This document shows, piece by piece, positions 14,955-44,095 of a stretch of DNA of 64,000 bases. Position 1 is the first letter of the stretch. Each line of letters opens with the position of its first letter. The stretch is from assembly GCA_951406725.2 (NCBI GenBank), contig OX597818.1, forward strand, positions 132,432,001 through 132,496,000, written 5' to 3'. Below the pieces are notes generated by a model. It was not told the origin of the DNA. It did no database searches and saw only the letters and a program-made list of their open reading frames with translations. Made by a program: the position numbers and the translations under genes. Source of the stretch: Octopus vulgaris (lineage: Eukaryota).

Positions 14955-16960
14955 ATTGACATTCATTGATCATTTCAGGAAGTAGCTTGAAGCTATTCTA
15001 CTGGCCAAAACCACAGCAGAAGCAAGGGACAAGAATTCAACATAAAACTGCACAGTTCTGCATGCCTGATGCAGTCGTGACAAACAATTTACTTCAGTTT
15101 CAATCAATTCCCTTCAATTTGCTGACATGTTTCCTACGTTAGTAAGGAGTTCACATTAGTGTTTACCATCCTTCATTGACTACAGTCAGTGAAATGATCG
15201 ATGATTCCGTAGACAATTGTCTTCCACTTTTGAAGCATAAACTGATAACATAAATTGGTTAGAATACCTTATCTTGTTCTTCTGGGTACTGATTCCAAAG
15301 TTCAAGATGGAATCGGTTGTACATCAGCCAAACTTGTCTATGGTAATATTTTTACATTACCTGTTCAAATGATTTCACCTGTCTTTTCTCAGAAGGTTCC
15401 AGATCTAGAAAGTTCTGTGCATTAACTTTAAATCTACAGTCCTAGTCTGCTACCATCCATTACTGCTCATTCATTAGCAACCCCTACTGTTGTACTGACC
15501 AACGTTTAATAATGATCACATGTCTTCAGTTTCAGTGGATTCAAAAGCAATTTTGACCGCTATATTGCAGTTCATTTAAAGTATAAGGTGATCGGGCTGA
15601 ATTTGATGACATTCTGTGTCTTTTATTTTAGAAACAGCTTAATGTATTGGAGAGCATAAAGCTTAAAGTTGTAGCTGAGAAAAGGTTAGCTAACATAAAG
15701 GACTGAAAATTATACAAAGATTAGAGAAGATTTAGCTGTATCACTATGATTTGCACTAGGTATTAAAATGCTGACATCATGACAGCTGCTCAATGTTCTG
15801 TGAACTCTGTAAAACTGATTTCCCCCAAACTGTTATGGCGTTTAGGTAAAGGTGAGGTCAAGCTGCCTCACATCTTTGAATACGGCCTCAGGCTCAATTC
15901 AGATGGTTCTGTGAAGCTGTTGTAGAGTTGCTGCTGGAAGGCCATATGTGTGGCAGCAAGATTCATTTACTTCCTATTCCACTGGAAAGAGTCAGAAGTG
16001 GTTGTCAGACAAGGCAGCGAGCTGGCAGGGAACATTAGCATGCTGGGTGAAATGCTTAACGGTATTTCGTTAAGCACCGTAAGGCGGCGAGCTGGCAGAA
16101 ACGTTAGCGCGCCGGGCGAAATGCTTAGCAGTATTTCATCTGCCGCTACGTTCTGAGTTCGAATTTTGCCGAGGTCGACTTTGCCTTTCATCCTTTCGGG
16201 GTCGATAAATTAAGTACCAGTTACGCACTGGGGGGTCGATATAAAACGACTTAATCCATCTGTCTGTCCTTGTTTGCCTCCTCTGTGTTTAGCCCCTTGT
16301 GGGTAGTAAAGAAATAGGTATTTCGTCTGCCGTTATGTTCTGAGTTCAAATTCTGCTGAGGTCGACTTTGCCTTTCATCCTTTCGGGGTCGATAGATTAA
16401 GTACCAGTTACGCACTGGGGGTCGATATAAAATGTCTGTCCTTGTTTGTCTCCTCTGTGTTTAGCCCCTTGAGGGTAGTAAAGAAATAGGTATTTCGTCT
16501 GCCGTTATGTTTTGAGTTCAAATTCTGCCAAGGTCGACTTTGCCTTTCATCCTTTCAGGGTCGATAAATTAAGTACCAGTTACGCACTGGGGGTCGATAT
16601 AAAACAACTTAATCCATCTGTCTGTCCTTGTTTGTCTCCTCTGTGTTTAGCCCCTTGAGGGTAGTAAAGAAATAGGTATTTCGTCTGCCGTTATGTTCTG
16701 AGTTCAAATTCTGCTGAGGTCGACTTTGCCTTTCATTCTTTCGGAGTCGATTAAATAAGTACCAGTTACACACTGTAGTTGATATAATCAACTTAATCCG
16801 TTTGTCTGTTCTTGTTTGTCCCCTCTGTGTGAAGACCCTTGTGGGCAGTAAAGAAATAAGAAGTGGTTGTCAGATCATTTCTATGACTTCATCATCCCCA
16901 ATTACTGGCTTCCTGATTGTAAAATATACTGTTTTCATTCTAGATATATTAATTTAACTT
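14955..16960 (-). mobile_element. Possible highly degenerate LINE remnant (host of the SINE C array)
   Basis: Only weak endonuclease-like remnants on minus (IGDD, LDLTFT, SCH); many stops. Confidence 0.3.
16011..16858 (+). mobile_element. SINE family C nested/concatemeric array (2 heads, 4 bodies)
   Basis: Junctions aaagaaata|ggtatttcgt at 16317, 16489 and 16675; 16-bp TSD agaagtggttgtcaga at 15994-16009 and 16859-16874. Confidence 0.9.
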
Positions 16961-17118
16961 GATTGCTATAAATTGTGAAGTTATGTAGAGATTTCTACTC
17001 TGGCTCCAATTGTTTTTTTTCTGGTAACATTGGAGCAGTTTTGTGTAAGTAGATTAATGACAAAAATGGATGCAGTAAAATATATTGCTCTTCAAATAAA
17101 CCTTATTTTAATTGAATC

Positions 17119-17450
17119 AATCATCATCATCATCATTGTTCGACCATGGTCGAGACAATGGAATTTACCATGCTACGCCAGTCTTCACGGTCCATCATGG
17201 CATTACGGAGGTCCTGTTGCTGGATGCCTGTATCCCTGGAGATTACATCAGGGTAGGAGAGTGTGCGCCCTCTGGTATTGCGAGTAGATGGCTTCCAGAG
17301 GAGAAGAGTAGAAATTACTGCTTTTTCAGCTCTACAACAATGTCCAGCAAACTGGACTCTCCTACCTTTCACTGGTTGACGTCCAGCGGGAACAGCTTTG
17401 TTTCATGGAGGAGGAAAGATCTTCTTTAGTACTTGGTTGTACAATGCTTT
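17119..17450 (-). mobile_element. RTE-group LINE 3' end
   Basis: RRVQFAGHCCR...MMDREDWR C-terminus followed immediately by a (GAT)n tail. Confidence 0.8.
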
Positions 17451-17607
17451 CCAATGTGTGTAGTAGTGGTGCGCGCACACATTATTAGTCATTTGAAAAG
17501 ACTATGGAATTGAATCAAACCTGTTGAAGTTTCATGTGAAACTCAACTGTACAACTTATAATAAATATATGGAGCAGTGAGAACATGATCAGCCTTATTT
17601 GGCTATT

Positions 17608-19037
17608 CAGCTCTAAAGAATTTTAATAACATGGGTTAGGACTCAGGAGAAGTGTTTGCAGGTGTTAGATGTATCCAGGCTCAGAAGTATTTTGTACCTC
17701 ACTTAACATTTTATGTATTGAAAACTACCAATCACTGAAGGAAATGAACATGAAAGGAATTTCACAGTCCTGATTCACAGAGGCTAATTAGCCCAAACAG
17801 ATTTAAATAACATGGGTTAGGGCCTATGAGAAGTGATTGCCAGTGTTGCATATACTCAGGCTCAGAAATATTTTTGTACCTCACAAAATGTTTTACATAT
17901 TGAAAACTACCAATTACAGAAAGAGATGGACACGAAAGGAATTTCACAGTCCTGATTCACAGAGGCTATTTAGCCCAAACAAATTTGAATAACATGAGTT
18001 AGGGCCTATGAGAAGTGATTGCCAGTGTTGCATGTACTCAGGCTCAGAAATATTTTTGTACCTTACAAAATGTTTTACATATTGAAAACTATCAATTACA
18101 GAAAGAGATGGACACGAAAGGAATTTCACAGTCCTGATTCACAGAGGCTATTTAGCCCAAACAAATTTAAATAACATGGGTTAGGGCCTATGAGAAGTGA
18201 CTGCCAATGTTGCATATACTCAGGCTCAGAAATATTTTTGTACCTCACAAAATGTTTTACATATTGAAAACTACCAATTACAGAAAGAGATGGACACGAA
18301 AGGAATTTCACAGTCCTGATTCACAGAGGCTATTTAGCCCAAACAAATTTAAATAACATGGGTTAGGGCCTATGAGAAGTGATTGCCAGTGTTGCATGTA
18401 CTCAGGCTCAGAAATATTTTTGTACCTTACAAAATGTTTTACATATTGAAAACTATCAATTACAGAAAGAGATGGACACGAAAGGAATTTCAGTCCTGAT
18501 TCACAGAGGCTATTTAGCCCAAACAAATTTAAATAACATGAGTTAGGGCCTATGAGAAGTGATTGCCAGTGTTGCATGTACTCAGGCTCAGAAATATTTT
18601 TGTACCTCACAAAATGTTTTACATATTGAAAACTACCTATCACAGAAAGAGATGGACACAAAAGGAATTTCACAGTCCTGATTCACAGAGGCTATTTAGC
18701 CCAAACAAATTTAAATAACATGAGTTAGGGCCTATGAGAAGTGATTGCCAGTGTTGCATGTACTCAGGCTCAGAAATATTTTTGTACCTCACAAGATGTT
18801 TTACATATTGAAAACTACCAATTACAAAAAGAAATGGACACGAAAGGAATTTCACAGTCCTGATTCACAGAGGCTATTTAACCCAAACAAATTTGAATAA
18901 CATGGGTTAGAGCCTATGAGAAGTGATTGCCAGTGTTGCATGTACTCAGGTTCAGAAATATTTTTGTACCTTAAAAAATGTTTTACATATTGAAAACTAC
19001 CAATTACAGAAAGAAATGGACACGAAAGGAATTTCAC
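17608..19037. repeat. 182-bp tandem array: 7 near-identical units plus 1 diverged unit
   Basis: Units start at about 17761, 17943, 18125, 18307, 18489 (180 bp), 18669 and 18851; diverged unit at about 17608-17760. Confidence 0.95.
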
Positions 19038-20009
19038 TGGAGGCTATCCTCTAGGCACATAATAATCTGTTGTTGTCTAGTTAATATGACCTCAGATTCA
19101 GAAGAGTAGCACCCATAGGCAACCATTACATAGAAAATTCAATATGGTCACTCTGTCTTTATCATAAGTCATGTTGGCCTTAAATTTAGGACTTAGGCCA
19201 GATTTTAAATTTATTAATGTTTGATTGTTGAAGGGGTTTTTCACTTCTGCATTGTTGAAGGGTGATTAACTATGGGGACCGAACACCACCCCACAAATGC
19301 ATACATAAACACCCACGAGTTCTTTGTTGTGTGTATAGTTTTTCATTGTTATTATTATTATTACCATCTCATTAGGCAAGTGCTGTATGAATTTGTTGAT
19401 ATGAATTCAAACTGCATGCTGTTCTACCCCCATAATGACCCTCTTCATTACTCTCCCTCTCTCTCTCTCTCACACACACACATACACACACAAACTCGCA
19501 CCACTTTAATCACCTGGTTGATTAGATTTTTTTTTTTTTGGCATTTTGGCTTTGCTTCACACACCTCTAAAATTATGAATGGAAATTGTTTTTAATAAAC
19601 AAACAAAAAAAAAAGATGAATCACTATTGTTTTTGCCGTTGTTGTTGCGTTGTTGTTGTTGTTGTTGTTGTTATTGGTGGAAGTATAAATCAAAATTAAA
19701 TAAGAAATAAACAACTAAAATGGACAGTTGTAAAGAAATCAACAACAATAACAAATACAAAAAGAAGAAAACAAACGTAAAAGATGATTAGTGTAAGGTC
19801 AATAAACTCATAACTAAAATGTAAGGGAACTACTATGAAGATAAAGGAACTAGTTGCCCCCCAAAAAAGAGAGTTTGTGTGTATGGGCAGGGTTGGGTGC
19901 ACGGGGGGTAGGGGATAAAATGGAAATTAAAATGAAGAATGATTAGAAAATGGATCAGAATGAGAAGGTATTAGCATGGTGGAATAAACAGCAAGTGAGA
20001 CAAGAGAAT

Positions 20010-20047
<38 letters not shown>

Positions 20048-20460
20048 AGATTGGTAGAGACAAATGCTATTTGAATATTCAACTACTTCATCCTAAGCAC
20101 TTGAGACAAAGAAGTCAAGACTGAATTGGGTTCGACACACAGGGTTTGATAAAAACCAAAAAAAAAGCAAAGGAAAAGAAAAATACTTTTTAAAAACTTT
20201 TACTCATAATTTTTGCGTTTTTTTTTTCCCCCTAAAAAATTTTAAGGAAAAATTTTTTTATAAAGAATTTACAAACAACAACAACAAAAAAGAATTCTTT
20301 TCCCTCAACTTCAGATTTGTTAACAAAAAGTTTTCAAAATTTTTAGGAAATTTCAAATTTGAATATGAAATTTAATATAGACCTACAAACACACACACAC
20401 ACACATATAGAGACACAAATTTGCTCACACACAAACATACATAAACATATACACACACAC

Positions 20461-20522
<62 letters not shown>

Positions 20523-21332
20523 GTTGTATGTGTCTTTTTCCTGAGTTGATGTATTTTAAGCAATGTCCTTTCACTCTTCACTGGTCTAAAATAGGATTTA
20601 CTTGAAAGAAGCAAATTAAATTTTTCAAATTTAAAATTAAATAGAATTTTCTCATTGCTTAATTGATTTGAATAATTTATTCCAGACCACCCTTAACCAA
20701 GCTATATTTCTTTTTTTCTTTTCTTTTTGTTATTGAATTTAAGAAAAAAAAATTGTATTTTCCTAATGTCATTTTAATTTTTCTCACCATTTCTACCCCT
20801 TTCTTTTGTTTTTAAACATTCATTTCTCCTTCTCATTGTTTTCATTTATATATTTATTTGAGAATTTTTTTCTACCCCCTCAACCTGTTCTGTTATTCCC
20901 AAGTACCCAACTCCCTTTTCTTCACCTCTACTTTCCAACTTTCACTTGGGTTTAATCCTCCAAAGCAACTGGTTTACTTCCACATTAATATTAGCAACCA
21001 TTGTTTCAATGTGCTTTATCTCTCCATGCAACTAATTTTTAATGTTCACTCTTCATCACTGCTTATTTCTCTCTCTCTCTTCCTTTCTCTCTTCACCATC
21101 ATGCTTTCTGTCTTTCAATGCAGTTTTATAACTACATGAAATAATTCTTTCATAAATTATCATTTTTAATTCTTAAATCCTCCTCAAAAATACAGGAAAA
21201 TATCATATCAAAGTTATATGAAGCTCTAAAACTGTGCTAACATTATATATTAACCCCAAAACGTTGTTAGTATTTAACTAAAATATACTTAAAAAAAACT
21301 ATTAAAAATAAAGCTAGCAAACGGTATCAAAG

Positions 21333-21544
21333 CAGGCAGAAACGTTAGCATGCCGGACAAAATGCTTAGCGGTATATCGTCTGTCATTATGTTCTGAGTT
21401 CAAATTCCGCCAAGGTCGACTTTGCCTTTCATCCTTTCAGGGTCGATAAATTAAGTCCCAGTTTCGCACTGGGGTCGATGTAATCGACTTAATCCCTTTG
21501 TCTGTCCACTCTATGTTTAACCCCTTGTGGGTAGTAAAGAAATA
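21333..21544 (+). mobile_element. SINE family C monomer
   Basis: Homology to 8860-9097. Confidence 0.85.
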
Positions 21545-21612
21545 TATATCAAGGTTTCAGTAAAAGTGTACAAAAATTATACTGAATTTCATCAAACTTT
21601 TCTAAATTCAAA

Positions 21613-21749
21613 CTGTGGCTGTGTGGTAAGAAGCTTGCTTCCCAACCACATGGTTCTGGGTTCAGTCCCATTACATGTCACCTTGGGCAAGTGTCATATA
21701 CTGTAGCCTCAGGCAGACCAAACCCTTATGAAAACTGAAAGAAGCCCGT

Positions 21750-21780
<31 letters not shown>

Positions 21781-21919
21781 TTAAAAATTAGGATAAAATC
21801 TTAATAAGAAATCTTAATAAGAAATTATCAGGTAGTTAGTGTGAAAAACCTCATAAGAGAAAAAAATCTGTAAATTTTTTTTCACTTGAAAATATTTAAT
21901 TATATTATATATTTATATA

Positions 21920-21981
<62 letters not shown>

Positions 21982-22320
21982 ATGAGGGGTTCAGTTCCCT
22001 GATGATCTAAACCAGTAGGTACACTGAGTAAGAGCTATAACTGGTCATCTGTTAGGTTCCAAGATCACAGCTGAGGCTGGAGCTAGGGATCTGTAGTAGA
22101 CTTCCGGGTCACATATGTGTGTATGTGTATGTGTGTGTGTGTCTTTGTGTCTGCGTTTGTCTACCACACCACTTGACAACCAATATTGGTGTGTTTATGT
22201 CCCAAAAGAAAATTTAAAAATTAGTCCTGAGAACACTTTCTTTGACTAAAACCCTTCACGGTGGTGCCCCAGCATGGCCAAAGTGTAATGACAGAAACAA
22301 GTAAAAGACAAAAAAAGATA
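21613..22320 (+). mobile_element. SINE family B split by TA-flanked inserts (about 21780-22110)
   Basis: Head at 21613-21755 and tail at 22113-22320; the insert start resembles 2030-2120. Confidence 0.65.
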
Positions 22321-22406
22321 AGCAGAATTTTTTTTACCAAAAGTCCTAGAGAAGAGGAATAAGGGTATGTCTTTGATTTTTGTTTTTTATTTGTTTCAGT
22401 CATTAA

Positions 22407-22608
22407 CCCTTTAGTGTTCAGGTTATTCAATCAAACATAATGCCTATTGATTCCCATTGATTTGAATTAATCTTCAAGATCTTGATGGTGTAATTACTTA
22501 ATGTAGAATAACATTGTAAAGTAGGTGTGAGAGCCTGGATCTGGTCAGTTTGAACATAAAACAGACTAGCTATTTTGGCCGGATATGGCCAGTTTAAATA
22601 CTAAAGGG
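22407..22608. mobile_element. piggyBac-type MITE
   Basis: TTAA|CCCTTTAG...CTAAAGGG|TTAA, inserted in a SINE B tail; same family at 46320 and 57391. Confidence 0.85.
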
Positions 22609-22774: not shown

Positions 22775-22811
22775 ATGTATGTATGTATCTATCTGTCTGT
22801 CTGTCTGTCTA

Positions 22812-22858
<47 letters not shown>

Positions 22859-22859
22859 G

Positions 22860-23159: not shown

Positions 23160-24600
23160 TTACTTGCTGGCTTCCCTAACAATTCCAAACCTTGTGCCAA
23201 AATTTGAAGCCAATAATATATGAGCATGAGACAACCAGTTGCTGACAACAAGTTCTCATTGAGAATGGTGTCCCAAGGTTTTGGTAATGACTTAGCCCAT
23301 AGTAGACACTCCTATTTTGCAACTGAGTATCATGAAAATCAATGATGTTATTCTCTATTTGACAACATGTGCTCCGCTGAGAAAGATCTTGGTTTTGTAG
23401 AATATGATTCTATGTGCCTACTTTGGCCCTTATTATCATGAAAATCAATGATGTTATTCTCTCTTTGACAACATGTGCTCTGCTGAGAAAGATCTTGGTT
23501 TTGTAGAATATGATTCTATGTGCCTACTTTGGCCCTTATTTTATTTAAGCATGTTATACTATGATCTGGTTTTCCATCTTTGTTCCAGAACATAAGATAT
23601 TTAACTTTCTATTACATTCTTTCTTTCATAGATGGACTGCAGAAATCCATGTTCTCACAGGATTAGAAATTAAATAATTAAATAATTGTCTTTATAGTAA
23701 TAGCGTAGATTGTTTAAAGCAGCACTCAAGGTTGTTTTGTTGTTACTGAAACACCTATTCTTTGGTTTACTATACATTAATCATCATCATGAATAAAGTG
23801 CTTGTTATTAGCATCTTCGGTTGATCATTTGTGTAGATGTTGAACAACAATGAAGCCAGTAAATTACCCTGAGGTAAATCGCTTCGTAATTTTCTTATGC
23901 AGATCTTATTATTCAGCATGACAAAGAAGCATTTATTTCCTCTCACAACACCAATAAACCACATGAGATCTATATCATTTCTTCAATAAATTTTATCTCT
24001 TTCTTTACAATAAGTGGTGATTAGCTGTATGGTAAGCCATAGTGAGATCAACGAAAACAGCTCCTGTAATTTTCCTTTGTTCAAAGCCATCCTTTATATA
24101 CTGAGTGAGATTAAACAGTTGGTGCATGGTTGACTTTCCAGAATAGAATCCAGCTTGGGATTCACTTATTTATTTATTTATTTATTCCTTTATTTATCAA
24201 TTTATTCTTCTTTTTTTAATAAGGTGTTATTCAATAACGACTGAGATTCTTTTTACAATTAATCACTCAAAAAGCTGACAAAACAGGAATGCCAGTCAGA
24301 AACTCTTTGCTTGAGATGAATCTTTCTGATTTAAGAAGCATTATTACTGTGCCTTTTCTGTGGCCCTTTGGTTTGAAGTTGAGCAGTTATATTTATGCTT
24401 CATATCAAAAGTATTCTAACTTCTCCATAAAGTTGACAAGACTGTATAAAAAGATCCTTGTAAAACTGCAATTTGATTTGTGATAAGGACAGTTTGCAGT
24501 AATGTGATATTCTCTTACTATTCTCATTTTATCACATAGATTTTGAATGAGATGCAACACGTTTTGACTGCTTTTACCCACAGTTATGGATTTTTAAGCT
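23160..24600 (-). mobile_element. Degenerate LINE reverse transcriptase (Ingi/Vingi-like)
   Basis: Minus-strand peptides QLFNLTQYIKDGFEQRKITGAVFVDLT, LPQGNLLASLLFNIYTNDQP and RAKVGT*NHIL; clade assignment is tentative. Confidence 0.75.
23328..23540. repeat. 106-bp tandem duplication within the LINE remnant
   Basis: tatcatgaaaatc...ggcccttatt occurs at 23328 and 23434. Confidence 0.9.
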
Positions 24601-24842: not shown

Positions 24843-25062
24843 GAAGCCTTTCTACTACAGGCACAAGGCCTGAAATTTTATTTTCGTGGGGATGCTAATT
24901 GATTATATCAATCTCAGTGCACAACTGGTACTTATTTCATTGACCCTGAAAGGATGAAAGGCAAAGTCGACCTTGGTGGAATTTGAACTTGGAACATAAG
25001 GGCAAATAAATGCCACTAAGCGTTTTGCCTGGCATGTAAATAATTCTGCCAGCTTACCACTT
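24843..25062 (-). mobile_element. SINE family C, older variant tail
   Basis: aaggatgaaaggcaaagtcgac core; variant tail also seen at about 42700-42990. Confidence 0.7.
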
Positions 25063-25635: not shown

Positions 25636-25911
25636 TATATTTTGGAGGCAGTGTGGTATTGGGCCAATAATAAAATGACTGAGAACTTTGACAATATGTT
25701 ATGCTTGAGTAGAAGACCAATCCAACCAAGTGAAATCGTAGTTGTGACAGATACTGGAGTCATGCAACTGACACCTGTGCTGGTGGCACATAAAAGCACC
25801 CATTACACTCACTGAGTGGTTGACATCAGGAAGGTCGTCCAGCCATAGAAATCATGCCAAATCAGTCTGGAGTCTGGTGCAGTCCCTCAGCTTATCAGTC
25901 CTGGTCAAACC

Positions 25912-26327
25912 TCTTTCTTTACTACCCACAAGGGGCTACACACAGAGGGAAAAAACAAGGACAAACAAACGGATTAAGTCGATTACATCGACCCCATTGC
26001 ATAACTGGTAGTTATTTAATCGACCCCGAAAGGATGAAAGGCAGAGTCGACCTCAGCGGAATTTGAACTCAGAACGTAGCGGCAGACGAAATACCTATTT
26101 CTTTATTACCCACAAGGGGCTAAACAAAGAGGGGACAAACAAGGACAAACAAACGGATTAAGTCGATTACATCGACCCCAGTGCATGACTGGTACTTATT
26201 TAATCGACCCCGAAAGGATGAAAGGCAAAGTCGACCTCGGCGGAATTTGAACTCAGAACGTAGCGGCAGACGAAATACCGCTTAGCATTTCGCCCGGCGT
26301 GATAATGTTTCTGCCAGTTTGCTGCCT
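25912..26327 (-). mobile_element. SINE family C dimer inserted in a family D copy (25670-26381)
   Basis: Junction at about 26095; TSD tggtcaaacc on both sides; family D resumes after the insertion. Confidence 0.88.
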
Positions 26328-26702
26328 TGGTCAAACCGTCCAATCTATGCTGGCATAGACAACGGACAGTAAATGATGATGTATTCCATGCTTTGGACTG
26401 AATTTTTACAATAGCAGGAGTTATGGATTTTAGTTTTTGTCACAGGGAGTTTAATGTCATGATAGTACTTCATAAAACCTCATTCTTCTCTCTTGGGTAC
26501 TGGTATTATACAACCCTCTCTCCCCAAATATCTATTGCCTTTTGTTGGAATAGAACATTGTAGGCCTACAGGAGTACATTGTTGAAATTCTTCTAGTTTG
26601 TAGATCTGTCAGGGACGCTATCCAGACAACAAGCTCTGCAATTCTGGATTGAACTGAGGGTATTTGTAGTTCAAAAATGGAGGAGGAAATTATCTTTATT
26701 TA

Positions 26703-26816: not shown

Positions 26817-26862
26817 TATATATATACATATATGTATATGTATATATATGTATATATATATA

Positions 26863-27092
26863 TTTCTTTACTACCCACAAGGGGCTAAACACAGAGGGGA
26901 CAAACAAGGACAGACAAAGGGATTAAGTCGATTACATCGACCCCAGTGCGTAGCTGGTACTTAATTTATCGACCCCGAAAGGATGAAAGGCAAAGTCGAC
27001 CTCGGCGGAATTTGAACTCGGAACGTAACGACAGACGAAATACAGCTACACAGGTCGCCCGGCGTGCTAACGTTTCTGCCAGCTCACCGCCT
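26863..27092 (-). mobile_element. SINE family C monomer in (TA)n
   Basis: Homology to family C. Confidence 0.85.
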
Positions 27093-29169: not shown

Positions 29170-29688
29170 CTCAAGGAGATGATGACAAGTGATTGAGACC
29201 TTTGGCAATTTGCTGGGCTTAGGAAGACTTGTCAAACCAAGTAAGATTCTTGTTGTGGCTGAGGCCTGTGACATGTAACAGCATCCATTCCAGTAACATG
29301 GATAAGTTCTCTAGAAGTGGTTGGCATTAGGAAGGGCATCCAGCCATAGAAATCAAAAGAAAGTCAGACTGGATCCTGGTGCAGCTCTTCGGCTTGCCAG
29401 TTCCAGTTTAATTGTCTAACCCATGCTAGCATGGATAGTGGATGTTAAATAACGATGACCCTGATAGCTGGCAGAAACGTTAGCATGCCAGGCGAAATGA
29501 GTAGCCGTATTTCGTCTGTCGTTACGTTCCGAGTTCAAATTCCGCCGAGGTCGACTTTGCCTTTCATCCTTTCGGGGTCGATAAATTAAGTAGCAGTTAT
29601 GCACTGGGGTCGATGTAATCGACTTAATCCGTTTGTCTGTTGTTGTTTGTCTCCTCTGTGTTTAGCTCCTTGTGGGCAGTAAAGAAAT
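29170..29688 (+). mobile_element. Diverged family D (29170-29458) followed by SINE C (29465-29688)
   Basis: ggcattaggaagggcatccagc motif, then the family C body. Confidence 0.75.
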
Positions 29689-30035
29689 GTATATTTTAGT
29701 AAAGAAATAGATATATATATCATCATCGTCATATATATATATAGAGAGAGAGGGGGCGAAAGAGAGAGAGAAAAAGAAAGAGTGACAGAGAAAGCAATAG
29801 GTAACTATGATCTGGGGATTCAAGTGTAGGAGGCTAGTAAGATTCAAGCATTTATGCTGCTAGTACAGACAACAAATAGTGGACAATTTATGATAAAACA
29901 TGTTTATTAGCATTATAAGTTGTACATTTCTTCTCATTTCAAAATTAAAAGGTATTTCGATAAGCTAACAGTCACCATACAGCTCATAGTTTATCAACTA
30001 AAGCTCCTAAGAATGCAAATGAAAATCCAAATTGT

Positions 30036-30699: not shown

Positions 30700-31990
30700 G
30701 TTCCCTCCCTCTGCCCCAAGAAAAACATCATCTCGGATAGTGGAATGTCTATCATTGATGGAGGCATGATAGTTGAAGAACACATTAAAGGTATTGATTA
30801 TCCTCCTACATACAAAGCACTGGGATTGGATGGCATTCCACTGGAAAGCCATCAAGTGTGCAAAAAGCATCTTATTGCATCACCTATACAAACTGTTGTG
30901 ACAGTGCTGAAAGAAGGAGCAGTGCCATAGGATATATTAGGCTGCAATATTTTTACACCACAAGGCCTAAGGGGATAGAAGCAACTGTTGCAATGACAGA
31001 GAAATCTCCTGGCTGAGCATCTTTGGGAAGATCTTCCTTTGTGTGGTTCTAAACTGACTGCTAAAAATCTCTGTAAATTAAGAATCAATGTAGCTTCAGG
31101 TCAATATGTTTCACAGTTGATATAATCGTCTCCCTACGGCAATTACAAAAGAAATGCAGAGACCAAAAAACATCCACTCTACATCACATTCATTGACCTC
31201 ACAAAGACCTTTGAACTTGTGAGCAGAGATGGTCTGAATAAAATTCATGTCAAGATTGGCTGCTCTGTACTATTACATAGGATTTTTCAGCCAGACATGA
31301 AAGGTGACATCCAGTTTGATGGTGCTTTCTCAGAATCTTTCAGTATTTACAGTGGACTGAAACAGGGCTGTGCACTCATACTCAATCTTGATCTGGCAGT
31401 GTTTCTACAGCTGGATGCCCTTCCTAACGCCAACCACTCCGTGAGTGTAGTGGGTGCTTTTTATATGCCACCGACACAGGTGCCAGACGAGGCTGGCACG
31501 GCCACGATCGGATGATGTTTGTTACGTGCCACCGGCACGGAGGTCAGGCGAGGCTGGCACGGCCATGATCGGATGGTGTTTGTTACGTGCCACCAGCACG
31601 GAGGCCAGTCAATGCGGTGCTGGCTACGGCCACGTTCGGATGGTTCGGATAAATAGACATATTAGACATAAATAGACATATCTCACCTGAGATAAATAGA
31701 CATATTAGAAGATCTGACTTAACATTAGTTATATTGACAATGAGAATTTGTAAGACATTAAGCTAATGTCAGCACACACTGAGGTTACACTCTACTGAGG
31801 TTGCAACCTAAGCTCACTGCTTTATGGCAGTGAAACCAAGAGCATCTTCTCTAGACATGAGAGGTGATTTGATGCCAATACAGTCTAAGATGAATTCTGA
31901 ACACCAAATTGATTGATCTAGCTACCAGCAATGAGATTCCGGCTCACACACAAGATACTCAGCCACACTGTACATTGTATGACATTATAT
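30700..31990 (+). mobile_element. Degenerate RTE/BovB-type reverse transcriptase, interrupted by a family D copy (31389-31645, minus)
   Basis: KALGLDGIP, LRQLQKKCR, DLTKTFELVSRDGL, SGLKQGCAL and LLYGSET motifs in RT order. Confidence 0.85.
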
Positions 31991-35454: not shown

Positions 35455-36553
35455 CATGTGTATATATACACACACCTATATATATACATGCATATATATA
35501 TATATATATATATATTCCTATATGTATATACACATGTATACATATGTATGTATACACTTACACAAACGCCCACAACTCACAGCCAAATATTTATGTGTAA
35601 TGTATAAATACTACTGGGATTTAATGAAACGATATTTAGAAAACTATGTAACTTAATGTAATTAATCCTTCAATAAATTTATGACCTTGGTGTTTCAGCG
35701 AAAGGAGCCAGTATGAATTTCTATTAAGTTAAAGCTTAGCAAAGAGAATTGGCAGGATAAGCAAACATGTATATCTGTCAGATTCCTGACGCTACATACC
35801 AAACAATTATTAACTCATGATGGAACCATTGCAGGATATCAATGTTCGTGTATATTAAGCAAAATAATAAAATATCAACAGCCAGCAATAGCAACAGCAA
35901 TAAGAACAACAATAAGAATGGCGGTAAAAATAGAATGAAATTAAAGTAAAATAATAATCTTAATAAGCAGCATACTAAGAGGTGTAACAACACAGAAACA
36001 TGAACTTACAAAGATACACACAAACACATGAATACACACATTAGTATATATACATATATATATATATGTATATATATATATACGTATATATCTAATTATA
36101 TATATATACACATACATATACACATATATTTATACATATGTATACATATACATGTGCATATATATGTACATATATATACATGTATATACAAACATATATA
36201 TACATATGCATATATATATATATACACACATATGCATACATACATACATATATGTATACATAGATATATACATATTTATGTATATATATTTATGTATATA
36301 TATTTATGTACAGATATATATATACATATATAAACGCATATATATGTACATATATATACATATATAAACATATACATGCACACATATATATATACAGATA
36401 TATATACATATATATATACACACACACACACATATATATATACACACATATGTATATATACATACATATATATATACACATATATATACACACACATATA
36501 TTTACATACGTATATATATATATATACATGTATATGTATATATACATATATAT

Positions 36554-36596
<43 letters not shown>

Positions 36597-36824
36597 TGTA
36601 TATATATGCACATATATATATATGCATATATAGTAGGTACTGCAAATTTAGGGTGAATACTTGATAAGTGTACCGCGATATCTTTTGTGTTCTGTTTTTG
36701 ATTTTATTTGATATATGCATACATATATATATATACATATATGTACATGCATATATATATATACATATATATGTATATATAGATAGATTGATAAATATAT
36801 ATATACACACTCATATACAGTATA

Positions 36825-36862
<38 letters not shown>

Positions 36863-36917
36863 GCATATTATATACATTTTATATATACACATATATTTGC
36901 ATAGATATATCTACACA

Positions 36918-36969
<52 letters not shown>

Positions 36970-36993
36970 AATATAAACACATATATGTTTATG

Positions 36994-37024
<31 letters not shown>

Positions 37025-37909
37025 GTGTATGTGTGTGTATATGTGTGTATGTGTGTCTGTGTGTGTGTATAACTTCATACACACATGAACACTTCTAAAT
37101 ACATTCATGCTGACATAACTATGTCAACTTCGTGCAGTCTAGATAATGTCATCAACCAAATTTTCACGTACATACATGCATATACACACATACATACACA
37201 CATACACATGCGTGCACACACACACACACTCAGATATATGTGGTAGATTTAGATTACATTATGTATATCCAATTTATATCCTGATATATAATTGTGAAAA
37301 ACAAATTTCTTTTTCTCCTTCTAATATTTGTTATGCTGTATATCACATCTAATATTACACGAGGCTTTAGCATTGGTGTTGTGCAGTAGGTGATAGGAGG
37401 TGTGAAATATATTGTAGATATTTGCTTTGTTTAGGGAATCAAGAGTAACCCTTATTACACACACCAACGATACTATAAACAACAACAACAGCAACGATGA
37501 AAACAGAAGCAACAGTACAAAATGCTATAAAACACCCATCAAAAAGGAAAAATAGGGATCACCAAGAAAACACTTTGTATAAGAAAATAAATTAAAATAA
37601 AGCAGAAGAAATGTATAGAATAAACTATTCATTCATGAGTAAAGTGTGTCTACATTTTGACATCTTTATGTATTTTATAGAAGCTTGAGGTCTCAATTCT
37701 TTTCATATATGTCTCTATCTATTATCAATTTATATATTTCTTTCTGTATCTCTGTATGTATGTATGTATGTATATACATATTCATATATACATACATACG
37801 CACAAAGAGACACACATTCAGACACATACATATATATATACGTGTGTGTGGGTATATATGTATGCATGTGTATATATATATATATATATAAATATAATCT
37901 GTTCATTTG

Positions 37910-37949
<40 letters not shown>

Positions 37950-38083
37950 TATATGATATATATATATATAAATATATATTTATAAATAAATATATATTGT
38001 GAAGTATAGTGGCACCTAAATGTCGCCGACCCATATGGGATGATGCTACTGTAGTTTATAGCCCCAGGAAGACATCTCTGATA

Positions 38084-38121
<38 letters not shown>

Positions 38122-38225
38122 TATATATAAATATATATGTAGATATATATATCACATGATATATATATATACATTATATAATGTATATGTATAATATATA
38201 ATGTATATATATATATATATATAAG
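34170..38225. repeat. Large degenerate (TA)/(CA)/(TACA) low-complexity block with short unique spacers
   Basis: Direct inspection; source of many spurious YI-rich ORFs. Confidence 0.9.
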
Positions 38226-38531
38226 GTTAGTTGAGTTAGGGGTTAAAATAATCATCTAAAGAATAGAAGTATCCATTACTCTACGTGTGTATTACCTATG
38301 TTTAACCATGGGCATACATATGCAAACATATTATGCTCATAAGTTATAGGTAAAGACAAGGATAAACATGGGTTTATCAAGAATTAAAATTTAAAGAAAA
38401 CAGAAAATGGAAAAGTACCGAGGAACCACAATTGACTTACATCAATTATTATTTATTTATTCAATGCAAACAGACTGCTTCCAATGTTGTATGGTATTGC
38501 CATTGATATGTAAAGTATGTAAAAACATTAA

Positions 38532-38839
38532 CCCCTTACCCAACAATTATTTTGAAAATAAAGGTATTTTTTCAGACATATTTTTTAATTGTTTTATTTT
38601 ACTATGTTTTGAATGGTGATTTCGAGGTATATTTCAAACCTTATTTATTATGAATTTTAATTCAATAATATTGATTTTAAATTACCGCTTTGGGCAGAAA
38701 CGAGTTAACCCGTTTTTAGACGAAGGAACTCGTTTGCTGTCGATTTTGGCGATTCTATCTTTTGACGAGTTAACTCGCCAGAGATAGAAAAAAACGATTT
38801 CGGTCAAAACGCATATATTCGTTTCTGCCGGGTAAGGGG
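38532..38839. mobile_element. piggyBac-type MITE (second family)
   Basis: TTAA|CCCCTTACCC...GGGTAAGGGG|TTAA. Confidence 0.85.
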
Positions 38840-39039
38840 TTAATCATATTTGGTAATAAAACCGATCTGAAACAAGGAGCTCCTTCAGAGTGAAGAATAA
38901 GTTTTTTTAAAGAAAGAGAAAAGTTCAGCTTTTCTGTTTTAACTTCTCTATGCTCTTCCTCTTGCTTGAGATCGGTTTTATTACCAAATATGATTAATAT
39001 TTTTACATACATGAAAATTAAAATTGAATGAATATTGTA

Positions 39040-39602
39040 GTTGTGATACTTGTGCCGGTGGCACGTAGGGCCTCACAGAGGAAATGACAATGACCGAGAC
39101 CTCTGAGATATGGTGTGACTGTGAAGACCCAACAAATGAAGTGTGTACATGGCTCGCAGAATGGCCTGCTGTGCTAACTTTGGATCGTAGAGTGACCTGC
39201 TGTTCTTGAGGAGACCTATTGAGTCAAGTACGTCAACACCAACATCAAAATAAAAATCAAATGGAAATTGTAGTTAAGATACCCATGCTGGTGACACATA
39301 AAAAGCACCATCCGAATGTGGCCGATGCCAGTGCCGCCTGACTGGCGTCCATGTCGGTGACACTTAAAGCACCAACTGATCGTAGCCGTTTGCCAGTCCC
39401 CTCTGGACCCTGTGCCAGTGGCACATAAAAAGCACCCACTACACTCATGGAGTGGTTGGCGTTAGGAAGGGCATCCAGCTGTAAAAACACTGCCAGATCA
39501 GACTGGAGCCTGGTGCAGCCTTCTGGCTTCCCAGACCCCGGTCGAACCGTCCAACCAATGCTAGCATAGAAAATGGACGTTAAACGACGATGATTATGAT
39601 GA
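39040..39602 (+). mobile_element. Family D: RTE LINE ORF end plus 3'UTR with tandem ggtggcacgtaaaaagcacc motifs and (GAT)n tail
   Basis: 5' part resembles GLTEEMT-DRDLWR (RTE C-terminus, frameshifted); inserted inside a PLE-like foldback (about 38450-39690). Confidence 0.75.
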
Positions 39603-39798
39603 CTTTGCATATCAGTGGCAATACCATACAACATTGAAAGCAGAAACAGCTGTTAGACGGGATGCAGTCTATTTACATTGAATTAATAAATAGTAATTGA
39701 TGTAAGTCAATTGTTGTTCAACAGTACTTCTCTATTTTCTTTATATATATATATATATATATATATATCATATTATATTATATTCATATATATAAATA

Positions 39799-40103
39799 TG
39801 GAGGCGCAATGGCCCAGTGGTTAGGGCAGCGGACTCACGGTTGTAGGATCGTGGTTTCCATTCCCATACTGGGCATTGTGAGTGTTTATTGAGCGAAACA
39901 CCTTAAAGCTCCACGAGGCTCCGGCAGGGGGTAGTGATCCCTGCTGTACTCTTTCACCACTCTTTCTCTCACACTTTCTTCTATTGGCCTGCTCGCTTAG
40001 CCAGCGGGGTGGCGTCATTCGGAGGCTAAAACAATGCGAATGCATTGTGACCAGCGATGTGTAACAACATCTGATGGCCTGGTCGGTCACGTGATCACGT
40101 GAT
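39799..40103 (+). mobile_element. SINE family A, head1 + tail2
   Basis: A/B boxes; ends ggtcggtcacgtgatcacgtgat. Confidence 0.85.
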
Positions 40104-40150
40104 ATATAAATATAATGTGTGAGTGTGTGTATATATATGTATATATATAT

Positions 40151-40204
40151 ATCATCATCATCATCATCATCATTTAGCATCCGCTTTCCATGCTAGCATG
40201 GGTT

Positions 40205-40251
<47 letters not shown>

Positions 40252-40364
40252 TACATATATCTGGACTGGTGCAGCTTTCGGGCTCCCCAGACCCCAGTTG
40301 AACCGTCCAACCCATGCTAGCATGGAAAGCGGACGTTAAATGATGATGATGATGATGATGATGA
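40151..40364. mobile_element. Family D tail foldback around (TA)n
   Basis: 40151-40208 (minus) and 40261-40364 (plus) are inverted. Confidence 0.75.
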
Positions 40365-40606
40365 TATATATATGTATGTGCATGTGTGTGTGTGTTTGTA
40401 TATGTATTCGTGTGCATTATGTATATACAAGTCATTAAATGATATTTTCTATTCCTTCCTTCCTTCAATATTTCTAACCATATTCCTCTATGAATTTAAA
40501 GAACTTTCCATTTAATGCGACCCTTATACGATATTTTACTTTATTCAACATGACCTACAATTATAAAAAGACCCTCTATCAGTCTCTTTTGCCAAACTAC
40601 TATATT

Positions 40607-41025
40607 GTGGCTGTGTGGTAAGTAGCTTGCTTACCAACCACATGGTTCCGGGTTCAGTCCCACTGCGTGGCATCTTGGGCAAATGTCTTCTGCTATAGCC
40701 TCGGGCCAACCAAAGCCTTGTGAGTGGATTTGGTAGACGGAAACTGAAAGAAGCCTGTCGTATATATGTATATATATATATGTATGTATATGTGTGTATG
40801 TGTTTGTGTGTCTGTGTTTGTCCCCCTAGCATTGCTTGACAACCGATGCTGGTGTGTTTATGTCCCCGTCACTTAGCGGTTCGGCAAAAGAGACCAATAG
40901 AATAAGTACTGGGCTTACAAACGAATAAGTTCTGGGGTCGATTTGCTCGACTAAAAGGCGGTGCTCCAGCATGGCCGCAGTCAAATGACTGAAACAAGTA
41001 AAAGAGTAAAAGAGTAAAAGAGTAA
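40607..41025 (+). mobile_element. SINE family B
   Basis: Full body plus (GTAAAAGA)n tail. Confidence 0.88.
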
Positions 41026-41213
41026 ATCTACATCAACTCAGACTATGTTGTCTTATGAAAAAAAAAAAATAAAAAGGGAAGGACAGATATTAGATAATGT
41101 AGTTCCAAGTAAACTACCACCTTCCAATCATGCCTTGAATTAGAAGATTGGTTGGTTATGACTGGAATGTATTTGATATGTCTGCTCAGTCAGTATTGAC
41201 CTAGGACTGAACA

Positions 41214-41541
41214 GTGAAGGTGCGTGGCTTAGTGGTTAGGGCATTCGGCTCGCGATTGTAAGGTCGTGAGTTCGATTCCCGGCGACGCGTTGAGTCCTTG
41301 AGCAAGACCCTTTATTTCACGTTGCTCCAGTCCACTCAGCTGGCAAAAATGAGTTGTACCTGTATTTCAAAGGGCCGGCCTTGTACCTTGCACACTTTGT
41401 GTCACGCTGAATCTCCCTGAGAACTATGTTAGGGGATGTGTGTCTGTGGATTGCTCAGTCACTTGCACGTTAATTTCATGAGCAGGCTGTTCCGTTGATC
41501 GTTCAACTGGGACCCTCATTGCCGTAACCGACGGAGTGCTC
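41214..41541 (+). mobile_element. SINE, head2 + tail1
   Basis: tggcttagtgg A box, gagttcgattccc B box and a tccttgagcaagac block, then the family A tail1. Confidence 0.8.
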
Positions 41542-41572
41542 CTAGGACTGAACAGCAACAGCATTAACAAAC

Positions 41573-42164
41573 GGTTGGCAGAAACGTTAGCACGCCGGGC
41601 GAAATGCTTAGCGGTATTTCGTCTGCCATTACGTTCTGAGTTCATTCCGCCGAGGTCGACTTTGCCTTTCATCCTTTCGGGGTCAATAAATTAAGTACCA
41701 ATAAAGCACTGGGGTCGATATAATCGACTTAATACCTATGTCTGTCCATGTTTGTCCCCTCTATGTTTAGCCCCTTGTGGGTAATAAAGAAATAGGTATT
41801 TCGTCTGTCGTTACGTTGTGAGTTCAAATTCTGCCGAGGTCAACTTTGCCTTTCATCCTTTCGTGATCGATAAATTAAGTACCAGTTACGCACTGGGGTC
41901 GATGTAATCGACTTAATACCTATGTCTGTCCTTGTTTGTCCCCTCAATGTTTAGCCCCTTGTGGGTAATAAAGAAATAGGTATTTCATCTGCCTTACGTT
42001 GTGAGTTCAAATCCTGCTGAGGTCAACTTTGCCTTTCATCCTTTGTGGTCGATAAATTAAGTACCAGTTACACACTGGAGTGGATGTAATCGACTTAATA
42101 CCTATGTCTGTCCTTGTTTGTCCCCTCTGTGTTTAGCCCCTTGTGGGTAATAAAGAAATAGGTA
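41573..42164 (+). mobile_element. SINE family C trimer
   Basis: Junctions aaagaaata|ggtatttc at 41795 and 41979. Confidence 0.9.
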
Positions 42165-42411
42165 TAATAATTAAGTAAATAATGTGAAATGTCAGCATGG
42201 TTAAAACTTGAACATGTAATAGTTGTTTTTGTTGTCGTTAATAGCCCAGATTAATGTGACAAGTTGATAGAAGCATCAGCATACCAGGCAAAAAGGTTAG
42301 TAGCATTCCATCCATCATTATGTTCTGAGTTCAAATTTCACAAAAGTTGAATTTGCCTTTCATCCTTTTGGTGTTCATAAATTAAGTATCAGTGAAACAT
42401 TGGGGTCAATT

Positions 42412-42672
42412 ACGGAGATGTACTCGCATAGCAAGTGATTTGATCTGAGATCGTGTGCTGGAACGAAAACAATTGCAGCATGGAAGGTGTTTGTAAGCCA
42501 TTTAAGAAACACACAAAAGCCATGAGATGCAGCACAGATTTTTGTCAGTGAACAGGTCGCAGATTTTAGCGACGAAAATATTTTGACAAATTAAACTTAA
42601 ATGTTGAAGTGAATCGAACGGCTTTTGTGTGTTTCTTAAATGGCTTACAAACACCTTCCACGCTGCAATTGA
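42412..42672. mobile_element. Family E short hammerhead-bearing foldback element inserted in an old SINE C
   Basis: Arms of about 50 bp (caattgcagc...aaaagcc); homologs at 50828, 56196 and 58539. Confidence 0.8.
42541..42590 (+). ncRNA. Type-I hammerhead, G3:C8 core variant
   Basis: tttgtca-GTGAACA-g-gtcgc-agatttta-gcgac-GAAA-atat-TT-tgacaaa: 7-bp stem I, 5-bp stem II, palindromic stem III region. Confidence 0.75.
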
Positions 42673-43509
42673 TTGGGATCAATGTAATTGATTAGTCTCT
42701 TCCCCCCAAATTTCAGGCCTTGTGCCTTCAACAGAAAGGGTTATTAGCTCAGGTCAACTTGAATTCAAGTGACCTATGATAGGTTTCACATTTTGACACA
42801 AGGCCAGCAATTTTGGAGGAAGGCGTAAACAGATTACAACAACCCCAGTGCTCGACTGGTACTTATTTTATCAACCCTTAATGGATGAAAGCAAAGTTGA
42901 TCTCAGCAGAATTTCTACTCAGAGTGTATAGACAGATGAAATGCATCTAAGCATTTTTACCAGTATGTTAACGTTTCTTTTAGCTCACCACCTCACAAAA
43001 GACCTATAAGTAATCAAACTCATTCTAAACAAAACCAGCCATGATTACATTGTGTAGGCACATAGCCTTAGGGTTACAGTATTGCATTATAGATCATAAG
43101 ATTTCTGTTTCAATTCCTGGACCAGGGGGTGTTTTGTGCTCTTGAGCAAAACTTTTCATTTCATGTTGCTCCAGTTCATTCACCGGTCAATGCGTTAACC
43201 CTGTGATGATCCAGCATCCTGTTGTAACCACAGCCACTTATCCACATTGGAAACCAGGTCAAGCTCTAACTCGATGAGTCCAACAGCTCATGCAAAAAAA
43301 CAAAAAAAAAAATGTTGTATGCCCTTTTCTTTTGTTTAAGATAATTATAGTCCAATTTGAGAATGATTTGCTTGTTATTTCTAATAGATGAAACGATTAT
43401 ATATAGTTTTCCTTGTTGGTTCATAGTTTCCCACATCAGGTGTATTAGTAATCTCAGATTTGAGTTATGAGTCATATGAACGAAACCATGATATTTATAT
43501 ATCCATAAG

Positions 43510-44095
43510 CCTGTGAGCTGGCAGAATCATTAGCACACCTGGAGAAATGCTTAGCGATATTTCGCCTGCCGCTACGTTCTGAGTTCAAATTCCACCGAGG
43601 TCGACTTTGCCTTTCATCCTTTCGAGGTCGATTAAATAAGTACCAGTTACGCACTGGGGTCGATGTAATCGACTTAATCCATGTGTCTGTCCTTGTTTGT
43701 CCCCTCTTTGTTTAGCCTCTTGCGGGTAGTAAAGAAATAGGTATTTCATCTGCCGTTATGTTCTGAGTTCAAATTCTGCCGAGGTCCACTTTGCCTTTTA
43801 TCCTTTCAGGGTCGATAAATTAAGTACCAGTTATGCACTGGGGTCGATGTAATCGACTTAATCCCTTTGTATGTCCTTGTTTGTCCCCTCTATGTTTAGT
43901 CCCTTGAGGGCAATAAAGAAATAAGAATCGTTAGCAGCATTTTGTCTGTTCTTACATTCTGACTGCAAATGTTGCTGGGGTCAAAACTTTTCCTTTCATT
44001 CTTTTGGGGTTGATAAAATAAGTACCAGCTGAACACTGGGGTGGATGTAATCCTGCCTTCTAAGCTTGCAGGCCTTCTACCAAAAGGAGAAACCA
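43510..44095 (+). mobile_element. SINE family C dimer nested in an older family C copy
   Basis: Junction at 43740; agaatc(a/g)ttagca occurs at both ends of the dimer and an older body follows. Confidence 0.8.

What the first reader, a model, noticed from the sequence alone, without database searches (positions are those of the whole stretch)
15994..43925. SINE family C forms head-less concatemers with one recurrent junction and nests into itself
Seen: seven junctions read ...aaagaaata|ggtatttc(g/a)t (16317, 16489, 16675, about 26095 minus, 41795, 41979, 43740). The 3' end rejoins the same internal position about 50 nt in, giving [head][about 185-bp body]n with n=2-4 at four separate loci. The tetramer and one dimer are each bounded by a single TSD (16 and 10 bp). 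Two copies end in ataGGTAT. At 16061 and 43520/43923 younger copies sit inside older family members. Inference: either rolling-circle or template-jump reverse transcription of a circularised body, or targeted self-insertion at GGTAT with homology-assisted 5' joining.
Basis: partly seen in the sequence, partly recalled or inferred. Interest (0 to 1): 0.7.

Follow-up and report, generated by a model that had tools for sequence, protein, structure and literature searches.

The report
SINE that inserts into itself
A very common short jumping repeat in this probably octopus genome sits in small chains with one head and one fixed joint, likely because new copies are pasted into one spot inside older copies of the same repeat, and some chains were probably lengthened later by local DNA duplication.

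Summary
Observation confirmed. A 232-bp tRNA-type SINE has 9 loci here: 5 monomers and 4 arrays with 7 identical tail-to-position-49 junctions. The same joint makes up 70 of 80 and 91 of 99 contigs among the listed tail joints in runs of two organisms. Best reading: serial, site-specific self-insertion. One array keeps both heads with a 10-bp duplication of the site; first and last units differ like unrelated copies in three of four arrays; off-target flanks resemble the site (0 of 100,000 random draws); a second, rarer self-site lies in the A box. Some inner units are junction-spanning chimeras, which points to later DNA-level duplication. Rolling-circle copying is disfavoured: no ribozyme, every array has a head, neighbours are often unlike. 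The helper LINE (Tx1 clade, per earlier scan notes) could not be tested, nor how the second head is avoided. The scan reported this system before in other windows of this genome; those notes changed my reading. Precedents: SINEU/Tx1-Mar, head-truncated bivalve SINE multimers. New variant of a known kind.

The parts
15994..16009 (+). Left copy of the 16-bp TSD of the outer (older) element
   Evidence: identical to 16859-16874
16010..16070 (+). Outer head, ending in the 10-bp site GGTATTTCGT (16061-16070), read as the left TSD of the nested insertion
   Evidence: 7 changes in 38 columns against 1 for the inner head
16071..16080 (+). 10-nt linker between the two heads; pieces match the reverse complement of the adjacent outer head
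   Evidence: seen by eye, not scored
16081..16316 (+). Inner head plus unit T1 (inferred incoming full-length copy)
16317..16674 (+). Units T2 and T3: chimeras with a T4-like 5' part and a T1-like 3' part, break between columns 42 and 62
16675..16858 (+). Unit T4, most diverged; inferred body of the older host element
16859..16874 (+). Right copy of the 16-bp TSD
25902..26337 (-). Dimer Da (head + two bodies, junction 26095) with 10-bp TSD GGTTTGACCA
41576..42165 (+). Trimer R (5'-clipped head + three bodies, junctions 41795 and 41979), right flank begins GGTAT, no TSD found
43508..43936 (+). Dimer Db (two unlike bodies, junction 43740), itself inserted at the A-box site of an older SINE; 13-bp TSD with one mismatch at 43523-43535 and 43924-43936
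43924..44052 (+). Remainder of the older related SINE (76% identity) that hosts Db
8862..9098 (+). Monomer; TSD begins GGTAT (outside the finding's range)
21335..21544 (+). Monomer, site 8-mer mutated
26861..27092 (-). Monomer in a TA microsatellite, site 8-mer mutated
29468..29708 (+). Monomer with a repeated tail end, site 8-mer mutated
46536..46797 (-). Monomer closest to the consensus with 14-bp TSD beginning TATTTC; reference for read laying (outside the finding's range)

Best explanation
This tRNA-type SINE forms one-head, many-body chains with a fixed joint at position 49, likely because a borrowed sequence-preferring LINE enzyme cuts there inside older copies and pastes a new copy in, the second head probably being avoided by pairing with the host's identical head or lost later, and some chains were probably then lengthened by local DNA duplication. 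In order: (1) an endonuclease nicks at GGTATTTC in an existing copy [inferred]; (2) reverse transcription primes at the SINE tail and puts tail|GGTATTTC in front of the old body [junction shown, process inferred]; (3) a full-length copy leaves two heads and a short duplication of the site, as at 16061/16675 [structure shown], whereas joining through the shared head, or later recombination between the two heads, gives head-new body-old body inside the host's original TSD [inferred]; (4) the junction restores an intact site and a small inverted repeat, so it can be hit again [sequence shown, reuse inferred]; (5) unequal exchange between neighbouring bodies duplicates the junction-spanning segment [chimeras shown, process inferred]. 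The helper is most likely a Tx1-clade LINE [from earlier scan notes and PMC4494074; not tested here].
For: Double-headed locus: outer head ends in GGTATTTCGT, the same 10-mer opens T4; outer head has 7 changes in 38 columns, inner 1; T4 is the most diverged unit. A second head-site-12 nt-head joint (46781 to 46727) is listed for organism B (table 5c). First and last units differ like unrelated copies in three arrays: T1/T4 25, Db1/Db2 22, R1/R3 17 differences, against a mean of 17.7 over 109 between-locus pairs. The 3'-most unit is farthest from the consensus of the other loci in 4 of 4 arrays. Right flanks of all 9 loci score 37 against the site, null mean 20.2, reached by 0 of 100,000 random draws; in three loci the left TSD copy carries the motif too. 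The site 8-mer is changed in 4 of 5 monomers and 0 of 7 junctions. Genome-wide, the same site gives 70 of 80 (X10) and 91 of 99 (X5) contigs among the listed tail joints, and a second site at position 16 recurs (5 and 3 contigs) and matches the Db nesting. Raw reads of X23 show 13 nt of site followed by a 5'-truncated tail (table 7). T2 matches T4 at all of columns 3-62 and T1 at all but 3 of columns 63-187.
Against: No helper LINE was seen at the site here. Da1/Da2 (11 differences) and the 3' parts of R1-R3 are more alike than most unrelated pairs, which independent insertions do not predict. Counted by private changes, only T and Da have the oldest unit last; R and Db do not, and their margins in the other measure are 1-2 changes. 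The R head has 0 changes, not the older head expected of a host. Column 38 T is shared by post-junction units of 3 of 4 arrays (p 0.05 by loci), as an inherited junction haplotype would give. T1's 5' part and T4's 3' part fit one subfamily haplotype, which allows the reading that three permuted units entered one host monomer by recombination. Site-like flanks could come from RNA microhomology (read-through RNA carrying GGTAT) and not from enzyme preference. n is 9 loci; one search listed only 15 of 301 joints and did not count all of them.
Confidence: 0.68

Rival explanations
1. The junction arose once or a few times; multimeric source copies are read through by RNA polymerase III and retrotransposed from any of their tails, and the junction spreads between subfamilies by recombination or template switching.
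For: 12 of 16 units have no run of four T, so read-through is possible. 3 of 9 loci continue GGT after the tail (p 7e-5), as priming at an inner tail would give. Column 38 T is enriched after junctions. All 7 junction tails have T at column 175. R fits a 3'-shortened copy of a longer array.
Against: No non-CpG variant marks a unit position across loci. It does not explain the double head with a site duplication, the second site at position 16, or the site followed by a truncated tail in X23. The column 175 link is not significant (p 0.21). Read-through copying probably happens as well, but as an add-on.
Confidence: 0.17
2. A head-less RNA body is circularised, or the reverse transcriptase jumps from position 49 to an RNA 3' end held next to it by the GAAAUA/UAUUUC stem, so several bodies are copied in one event.
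For: The tail is complementary to positions 51-56, which would bring the 3' end beside the junction. T1-3', T2, T3 and T4-5' form three near-identical permuted units. Rolling-circle arrays are proposed for animal retrozymes.
Against: No hammerhead core in 6 of 6 loci scanned and no Rfam match at gathering score or with E below 2. All 4 arrays have a head. Both dimers have units that differ at 11 and 22 sites. T2/T3 and R2/R3 share changes missing from the first unit, which suggests steps, not one event.
Confidence: 0.08
3. The arrays are SINE-derived satellites made only by DNA-level duplication, with no RNA step at the junction.
For: T2 and T3 are duplication products. Squamate SINE-derived satellites have this layout (PMC10702118). 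The genome is rich in tandem repeats (133 rows).
Against: A monomer has no direct repeat at the two joined points (5 of 20 letters alike left of them), so independent duplications would not reuse one junction; unlike neighbours and the double head need insertions.
Confidence: 0.05

Closest known systems
SINEU-3 with Tx1-Mar LINEs in crocodilians (Kojima 2015, PMC4494074; passages incl. section 14, and sections 15, 16 read)
   Same: A SINE takes the target preference of its helper, the target is a repeat, two preferred sites exist, and tandem copies arise by sequential insertion.
   Different: There the target is another element (Mariner-N4_AMi) and tandem copies sandwich a TSD; here the target is the SINE's own head and most junctions are seamless and head-less. 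The helper was not identified here.
TSD1-(SINE)n-TSD1 multimers of the blood clam Scapharca broughtonii (PMC11481361; section 15 whole, passages of the discussion)
   Same: One complete head, repeated head-truncated units, one outer TSD pair, in a mollusc tRNA-type SINE.
   Different: Their inner units are also cut at the tail, about 3% of copies are in tandem or palindromic form, and the authors suggest unequal recombination; here tails are complete, 4 of 9 loci are arrays and there are marks of insertion at the site.
SINE-derived satellites (sSat) of squamates (PMC10702118; parts 1, 3, 4 of 5 read)
   Same: Tandem unit shorter than the SINE with a leading part of the element; local expansion.
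   Different: sSats reach hundreds of units, become homogeneous and lean subtelomeric; short loci there vary in the region repeated, whereas here short arrays share one junction.
Animal non-LTR retrozymes (bioRxiv 10.64898/2026.07.22.740005, passages; PMC7229834, search listing only)
   Same: Non-coding 150-400 nt units found as monomers, dimers and multimers.
   Different: They carry a hammerhead in each unit and no tRNA head; no hammerhead core was found here.
MetaSINE superfamily (PMC4824008; section 9, passages, supplement searched)
   Same: tRNA-type head followed at once by a conserved central stretch; the likeness of this core to the Meta domain is recalled, not tested.
   Different: No self-targeting or multimers described in what I read ('tandem' 0 occurrences); no octopus member is listed in section 9.

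Membership tests
tRNA-derived SINE | A box near the 5' end | tested here: met
   TGGCAGAAACG at position 12 in 2 of 2 monomers tested
tRNA-derived SINE | B box | tested here: inconclusive
   My strict pattern found none; GTTCAAATTCC differs from GTTCRANNC (recalled consensus) at one place; ARAGORN found no tRNA
tRNA-derived SINE | Short, interspersed, non-coding, with TSDs | tested here: met
   232 bp, 9 loci, 5.3% of the window; clear TSDs at 4 of 9 loci plus the 13-bp one of Db
tRNA-derived SINE | 3' tail shared with a partner LINE | not testable with these tools
   No genome held; no partner LINE recognised in the window
MetaSINE | 66-bp Meta domain behind the tRNA region | not testable with these tools
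   The consensus is in a figure; supplement search gave no sequence, one file not searched
SINE moved by a target-specific Tx1 LINE (SINEU/Tx1-Mar type) | Preferred insertion at a fixed site in a repeat | tested here: met
   7 of 7 junctions at position 49; 70 of 80 and 91 of 99 listed contigs
SINE moved by a target-specific Tx1 LINE (SINEU/Tx1-Mar type) | A Tx1-clade LINE with the same target | not testable with these tools
   Claimed in earlier notes, no sequence given; active L1-Tx1 families exist in O. vulgaris
SINE moved by a target-specific Tx1 LINE (SINEU/Tx1-Mar type) | Tandem copies flank a TSD | tested here: inconclusive
   Met at 1 of 4 arrays; the others are seamless
Non-LTR retrozyme | Type I hammerhead in each unit | tested here: not met
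   No CTGANGA on either strand in 6 of 6 loci scanned; no ribozyme in Rfam
SINE-derived satellite (sSat) | Four or more middle monomers, homogenised | tested here: not met
   At most two middle units; first and last units differ at up to 25 sites
True dimeric SINE (Alu-like) | Fixed unit number with position-specific sequence | tested here: not met
   Unit number 1-4; no non-CpG position-specific variant; one CpG-site candidate

The most novel reading that the evidence does not exclude
The SINE's RNA tail works as a short guide: GAAAUA pairs with the TATTTC strand of its own head, frees the nicked primer and, once copied, rebuilds the site as a hairpin that is a better landing pad than the original. 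The passenger would then build and renew the targets of its own helper LINE, with two tail types serving two self-sites (position 49 and position 16).
Probability: 0.2. Interest if true: 0.78.

Novelty: new variant of a known kind. Interest (0 to 1): 0.5.

Why it matters
If right, an abundant SINE supplies the landing sites for the machinery that spreads it, a self-made safe haven that needs no host repeat such as rDNA. It gives a route from SINE to fixed-junction tandem arrays (insertion first, duplication second) that can be tested on the bivalve and squamate cases, where only recombination has been proposed. It also offers many natural events for asking how the 5' end of a non-LTR insertion is joined when target and insert are homologous. 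In practice, copy numbers and ages of octopus SINEs are distorted if such chains are merged or split.

Tried and rejected
No whole genome is held, so no genome-wide count on an assembly. Pattern scans found nothing: viral contigs, metagenome contigs twice, genome contigs. Raw DNA reads labelled with the same species laid only 16 (X22) and 287 (X23) of 12.9 million reads each; this is far too few for so common a repeat and I cannot say why, so I drew no frequencies from them. X10 is only guessed to be RNA, so it says nothing on transcription or circles. The share of all tails that run into the junction remains unmeasured. Whole-element RNA folding is no better than shuffles (z -0.13 and -0.76). 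The repeat finder was swamped by microsatellites. The automatic TSD search missed the T and Db duplications because they lie beyond the range given. Rejected: retrozyme (no hammerhead); fixed dimeric family; assembly artefact (units differ, and the joint is in contigs of two organisms and in 3 raw reads). Earlier-findings look-ups by sequence, words, near and relatives gave nothing relevant.
Full report
OBSERVATION. A BLAST of one head-plus-body copy against the window gives 21 rows: 16 full bodies in 9 loci, one extra head, and 4 older, partly related SINEs. Five loci are monomers (8862, 21335, 27082-, 29468, 46771-) and four are arrays: T (16081-16858, four bodies), Da (26327-25912, minus, two), R (41576-42160, three) and Db (43518-43923, two). 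The family fills 5.3% of the window. The TSDs of 16 and 10 bp are real. The window has no recognisable host gene; it is full of microsatellites and retroelement debris. That it is an octopus I recall from the look of the repeat and take from earlier scan notes; I did not test it.

ANATOMY. An A box lies at position 12. A B-box-like GTTCAAATTCC lies behind the junction, so each added body carries that motif but no A box; my strict B-box pattern did not match it. The original site is the right arm of a hairpin (left arm CGAAATGC, -6.1 kcal/mol as DNA); the junction puts GAAATA in place of the left arm and forms a smaller inverted repeat (5-bp stem). Apart from that, the 20 letters left of the site in head and tail agree at only 5 places, so the junction is not a plain microhomology join.

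THE JUNCTION ELSEWHERE. I laid four runs on the monomer at 46440-46890. Of 301 joints 15 were listed, and the tool says that not all were counted. Nine listed joints lead from the tail back into the element. Those at positions 49-51 hold 54 contigs in X10 (organism A) and 55 in X5 (organism B); two more rows (positions 66, 70) I read as the same site with a diverged stretch between, from the letters of table 5c. Together that is 70 of 80 and 91 of 99 contigs. The rest are full-length head-to-tail tandems (5 and 5 contigs) and a joint at position 16 (5 and 3), the start of AGAAACGTTAGCA in the A box. That is the site at which Db sits in an older SINE, with a 13-bp duplication (one mismatch) at 43523 and 43924. 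So junctions do not vary at random, and there are two self-sites. Contig counts are not copy numbers. The raw reads were nearly empty (16 and 287 laid), unexplained.

EVIDENCE FOR INSERTION AT THE SITE. (a) Inside one 16-bp TSD, locus T reads: outer head ending GGTATTTCGT, 10-nt linker, inner head, T1-T3, GGTATTTCGT, rest of T4. The outer head has 7 changes in 38 columns, the inner 1; T4 is 19 changes from the consensus of the other loci, T1-T3 8 to 12. This is what a full-length copy leaves when it enters an older copy with a 10-bp duplication. (b) Table 5c lists the same layout in organism B (head to position 55, 12 letters, new head; depth 258). (c) Loose ends in X23 (40 and 25 reads) show tail, 13 letters of site, then a tail cut short at its 5' side, as a truncated insertion with a site duplication would give; this may be one amplified locus. 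(d) T1/T4, Db1/Db2 and R1/R3 differ at 25, 22 and 17 sites, against 17.7 on average for 109 between-locus pairs. (e) The last unit is farthest from the consensus in 4 of 4 arrays (1 in 48 by chance, my arithmetic), but by 1-2 changes only in R and Db, and private changes support this only in T and Da. In Da the middle unit has 1 private change, the last 6. (f) The right flanks of all nine loci resemble the site: score 37, null mean 20.2, 0 of 100,000 draws (the two offsets were chosen after seeing the data but are in the null too). In the monomers at 8862 and 46771 and in Da the left TSD copy has the motif as well. (g) The site 8-mer is changed in 4 of 5 monomers and in none of 7 junctions (monomers against hosts p 0.04; 6.5% of other 8-column windows reach 4 of 5), as if copies with a spoiled site escape. 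These are small numbers and several tests.

EVIDENCE FOR LATER DUPLICATION. T2 equals T4 over columns 3-62 (0 differences; 1 of 109 unrelated pairs reach 0) but differs at 17 sites beyond; T2 differs from T1 at 6 sites up to column 41 and only 3 beyond. T3 is alike. So T2 and T3 are T4-5'/T1-3' chimeras, the expected product of unequal exchange in a T1-T4 dimer, with the break in the best-conserved stretch. R1 differs from R2 at 11 sites up to column 100 and 3 beyond, a similar pattern, though R3 shares the R-type 3' changes, which needs both parents to be of one subfamily, gene conversion, or copying of a longer array from an inner tail.

WHAT SPEAKS AGAINST. Da1/Da2 are closer than 93% of unrelated pairs. 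Column 38 T is in 6 of 7 post-junction units and 1 of 9 head-adjacent units (3 of 4 against 1 of 9 by loci, p 0.05); it is a CpG site and hosts should be older, but an inherited junction haplotype predicts the same. T1-5' and T4-3' carry markers that go together in Da and Db1 (columns 17, 78, 81), so three permuted units may have entered a single monomer by recombination. The R head shows no changes. Site-like flanks may reflect RNA that reads on into GGTAT and pairs with the target; Kojima notes that co-transcription with the target can strengthen targeting. How the second head is avoided is open. The helper is unseen.

TWO TAIL TYPES. Two of the 3 units with C at column 175 are followed by AGAA, none of the 13 with T (p 0.025; noticed after the fact). 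It may mean that two tail types or helpers serve the two sites, as for the two sites in Mariner-N4. A lead only.

EARLIER NOTES. Before I favoured repeated copying of one template or an inherited junction (stated). Notes on other windows of this genome describe a Tx1-clade LINE, ORF1-only partners and a SINE that all land at one base of a SINE head. They gave me the self-insertion reading, the Kojima paper, and the ideas of a rebuilt site and a guiding tail. I had seen the GAAATA/TATTTC complement myself. The notes show no sequence, so that they concern this very family and site is likely but unchecked. They are not independent support; tests (a)-(g) are my own.

LITERATURE. Kojima 2015 (PMC4494074): passages that include the text of section 14, and sections 15 and 16. 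Bivalve SINEs (PMC11481361): passages and section 15. Squamate sSats (PMC10702118): parts 1, 3, 4 of 5. MetaSINEs (PMC4824008): passages, section 9, one of two supplement files searched. Mollusc SINEs (PMC4758252): passages. Retrozyme preprint: passages; its supplements were not seen. O. vulgaris repeat annotation 2026 (PMC13282606): parts 1-2 of 3 and a supplement search; it lists 13 recently active L1-Tx1 families and SINEs at 11.6% of the genome, and says nothing there on self-targeting; its consensus library is deposited elsewhere and I could not see it. PMC8967140: passages. Ten searches showed no paper on a SINE that targets its own head; subscription papers, Repbase and Dfam entries, the 1994 octopus SINE paper and figure-only sequences were out of reach.

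VERDICT. The feature is real and widespread. It works like the SINEU/Tx1-Mar system turned on itself and looks like the bivalve TSD-(SINE)n-TSD multimers; membership of a Tx1 partnership is untested here. New variant of a known kind; best explanation 0.68; interest 0.5.

Noticed in passing
window 17601-19037: Tandem array of a 182-bp unit, 7.9 copies, 93% matches, not hit by the SINE query; one unit is out of register with the rest.
   Followed up: no
window 10299-10691 (-): Open frame with a GIY-YIG domain (Pfam E 3.7e-5), probably a Penelope-type fragment; RT-like fragments by eye at 14278-14691 (-) and 31126-31515 (+) had no Pfam match.
   Followed up: partly
window 62334-62747 (+): Open frame with C2H2 zinc-finger matches; a similar stretch lies at 61910-62248 (-), so possibly an inverted pair of LINE 3' ends.
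   Followed up: partly
run X23, reference 46550-46615: Reads suggest an array of about 80-bp units made of 13 letters of the site plus the SINE tail only.
   Followed up: partly
window 29670-29708: The monomer's tail end AGTAAAGAAAT is repeated after a 9-nt spacer, as slippage at the start of reverse transcription would give.
   Followed up: no
window 46460-46515: The flank of the reference monomer is itself part of another repeat family (many contigs and reads laid there).
   Followed up: no
window 24901-25055, 42319-42410, 42832-42978, 43933-44052: Four older SINEs share head and core with family C (76-80%) but have other 3' parts and a variant site (GGCATTT-like); none carries an insertion at position 49.
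   Followed up: partly
window 47165-47510 and 23328-23540: Young local tandem duplications (86-bp unit, 98%; 106-bp unit, 98%), a sign that DNA-level duplication is common here.
   Followed up: no
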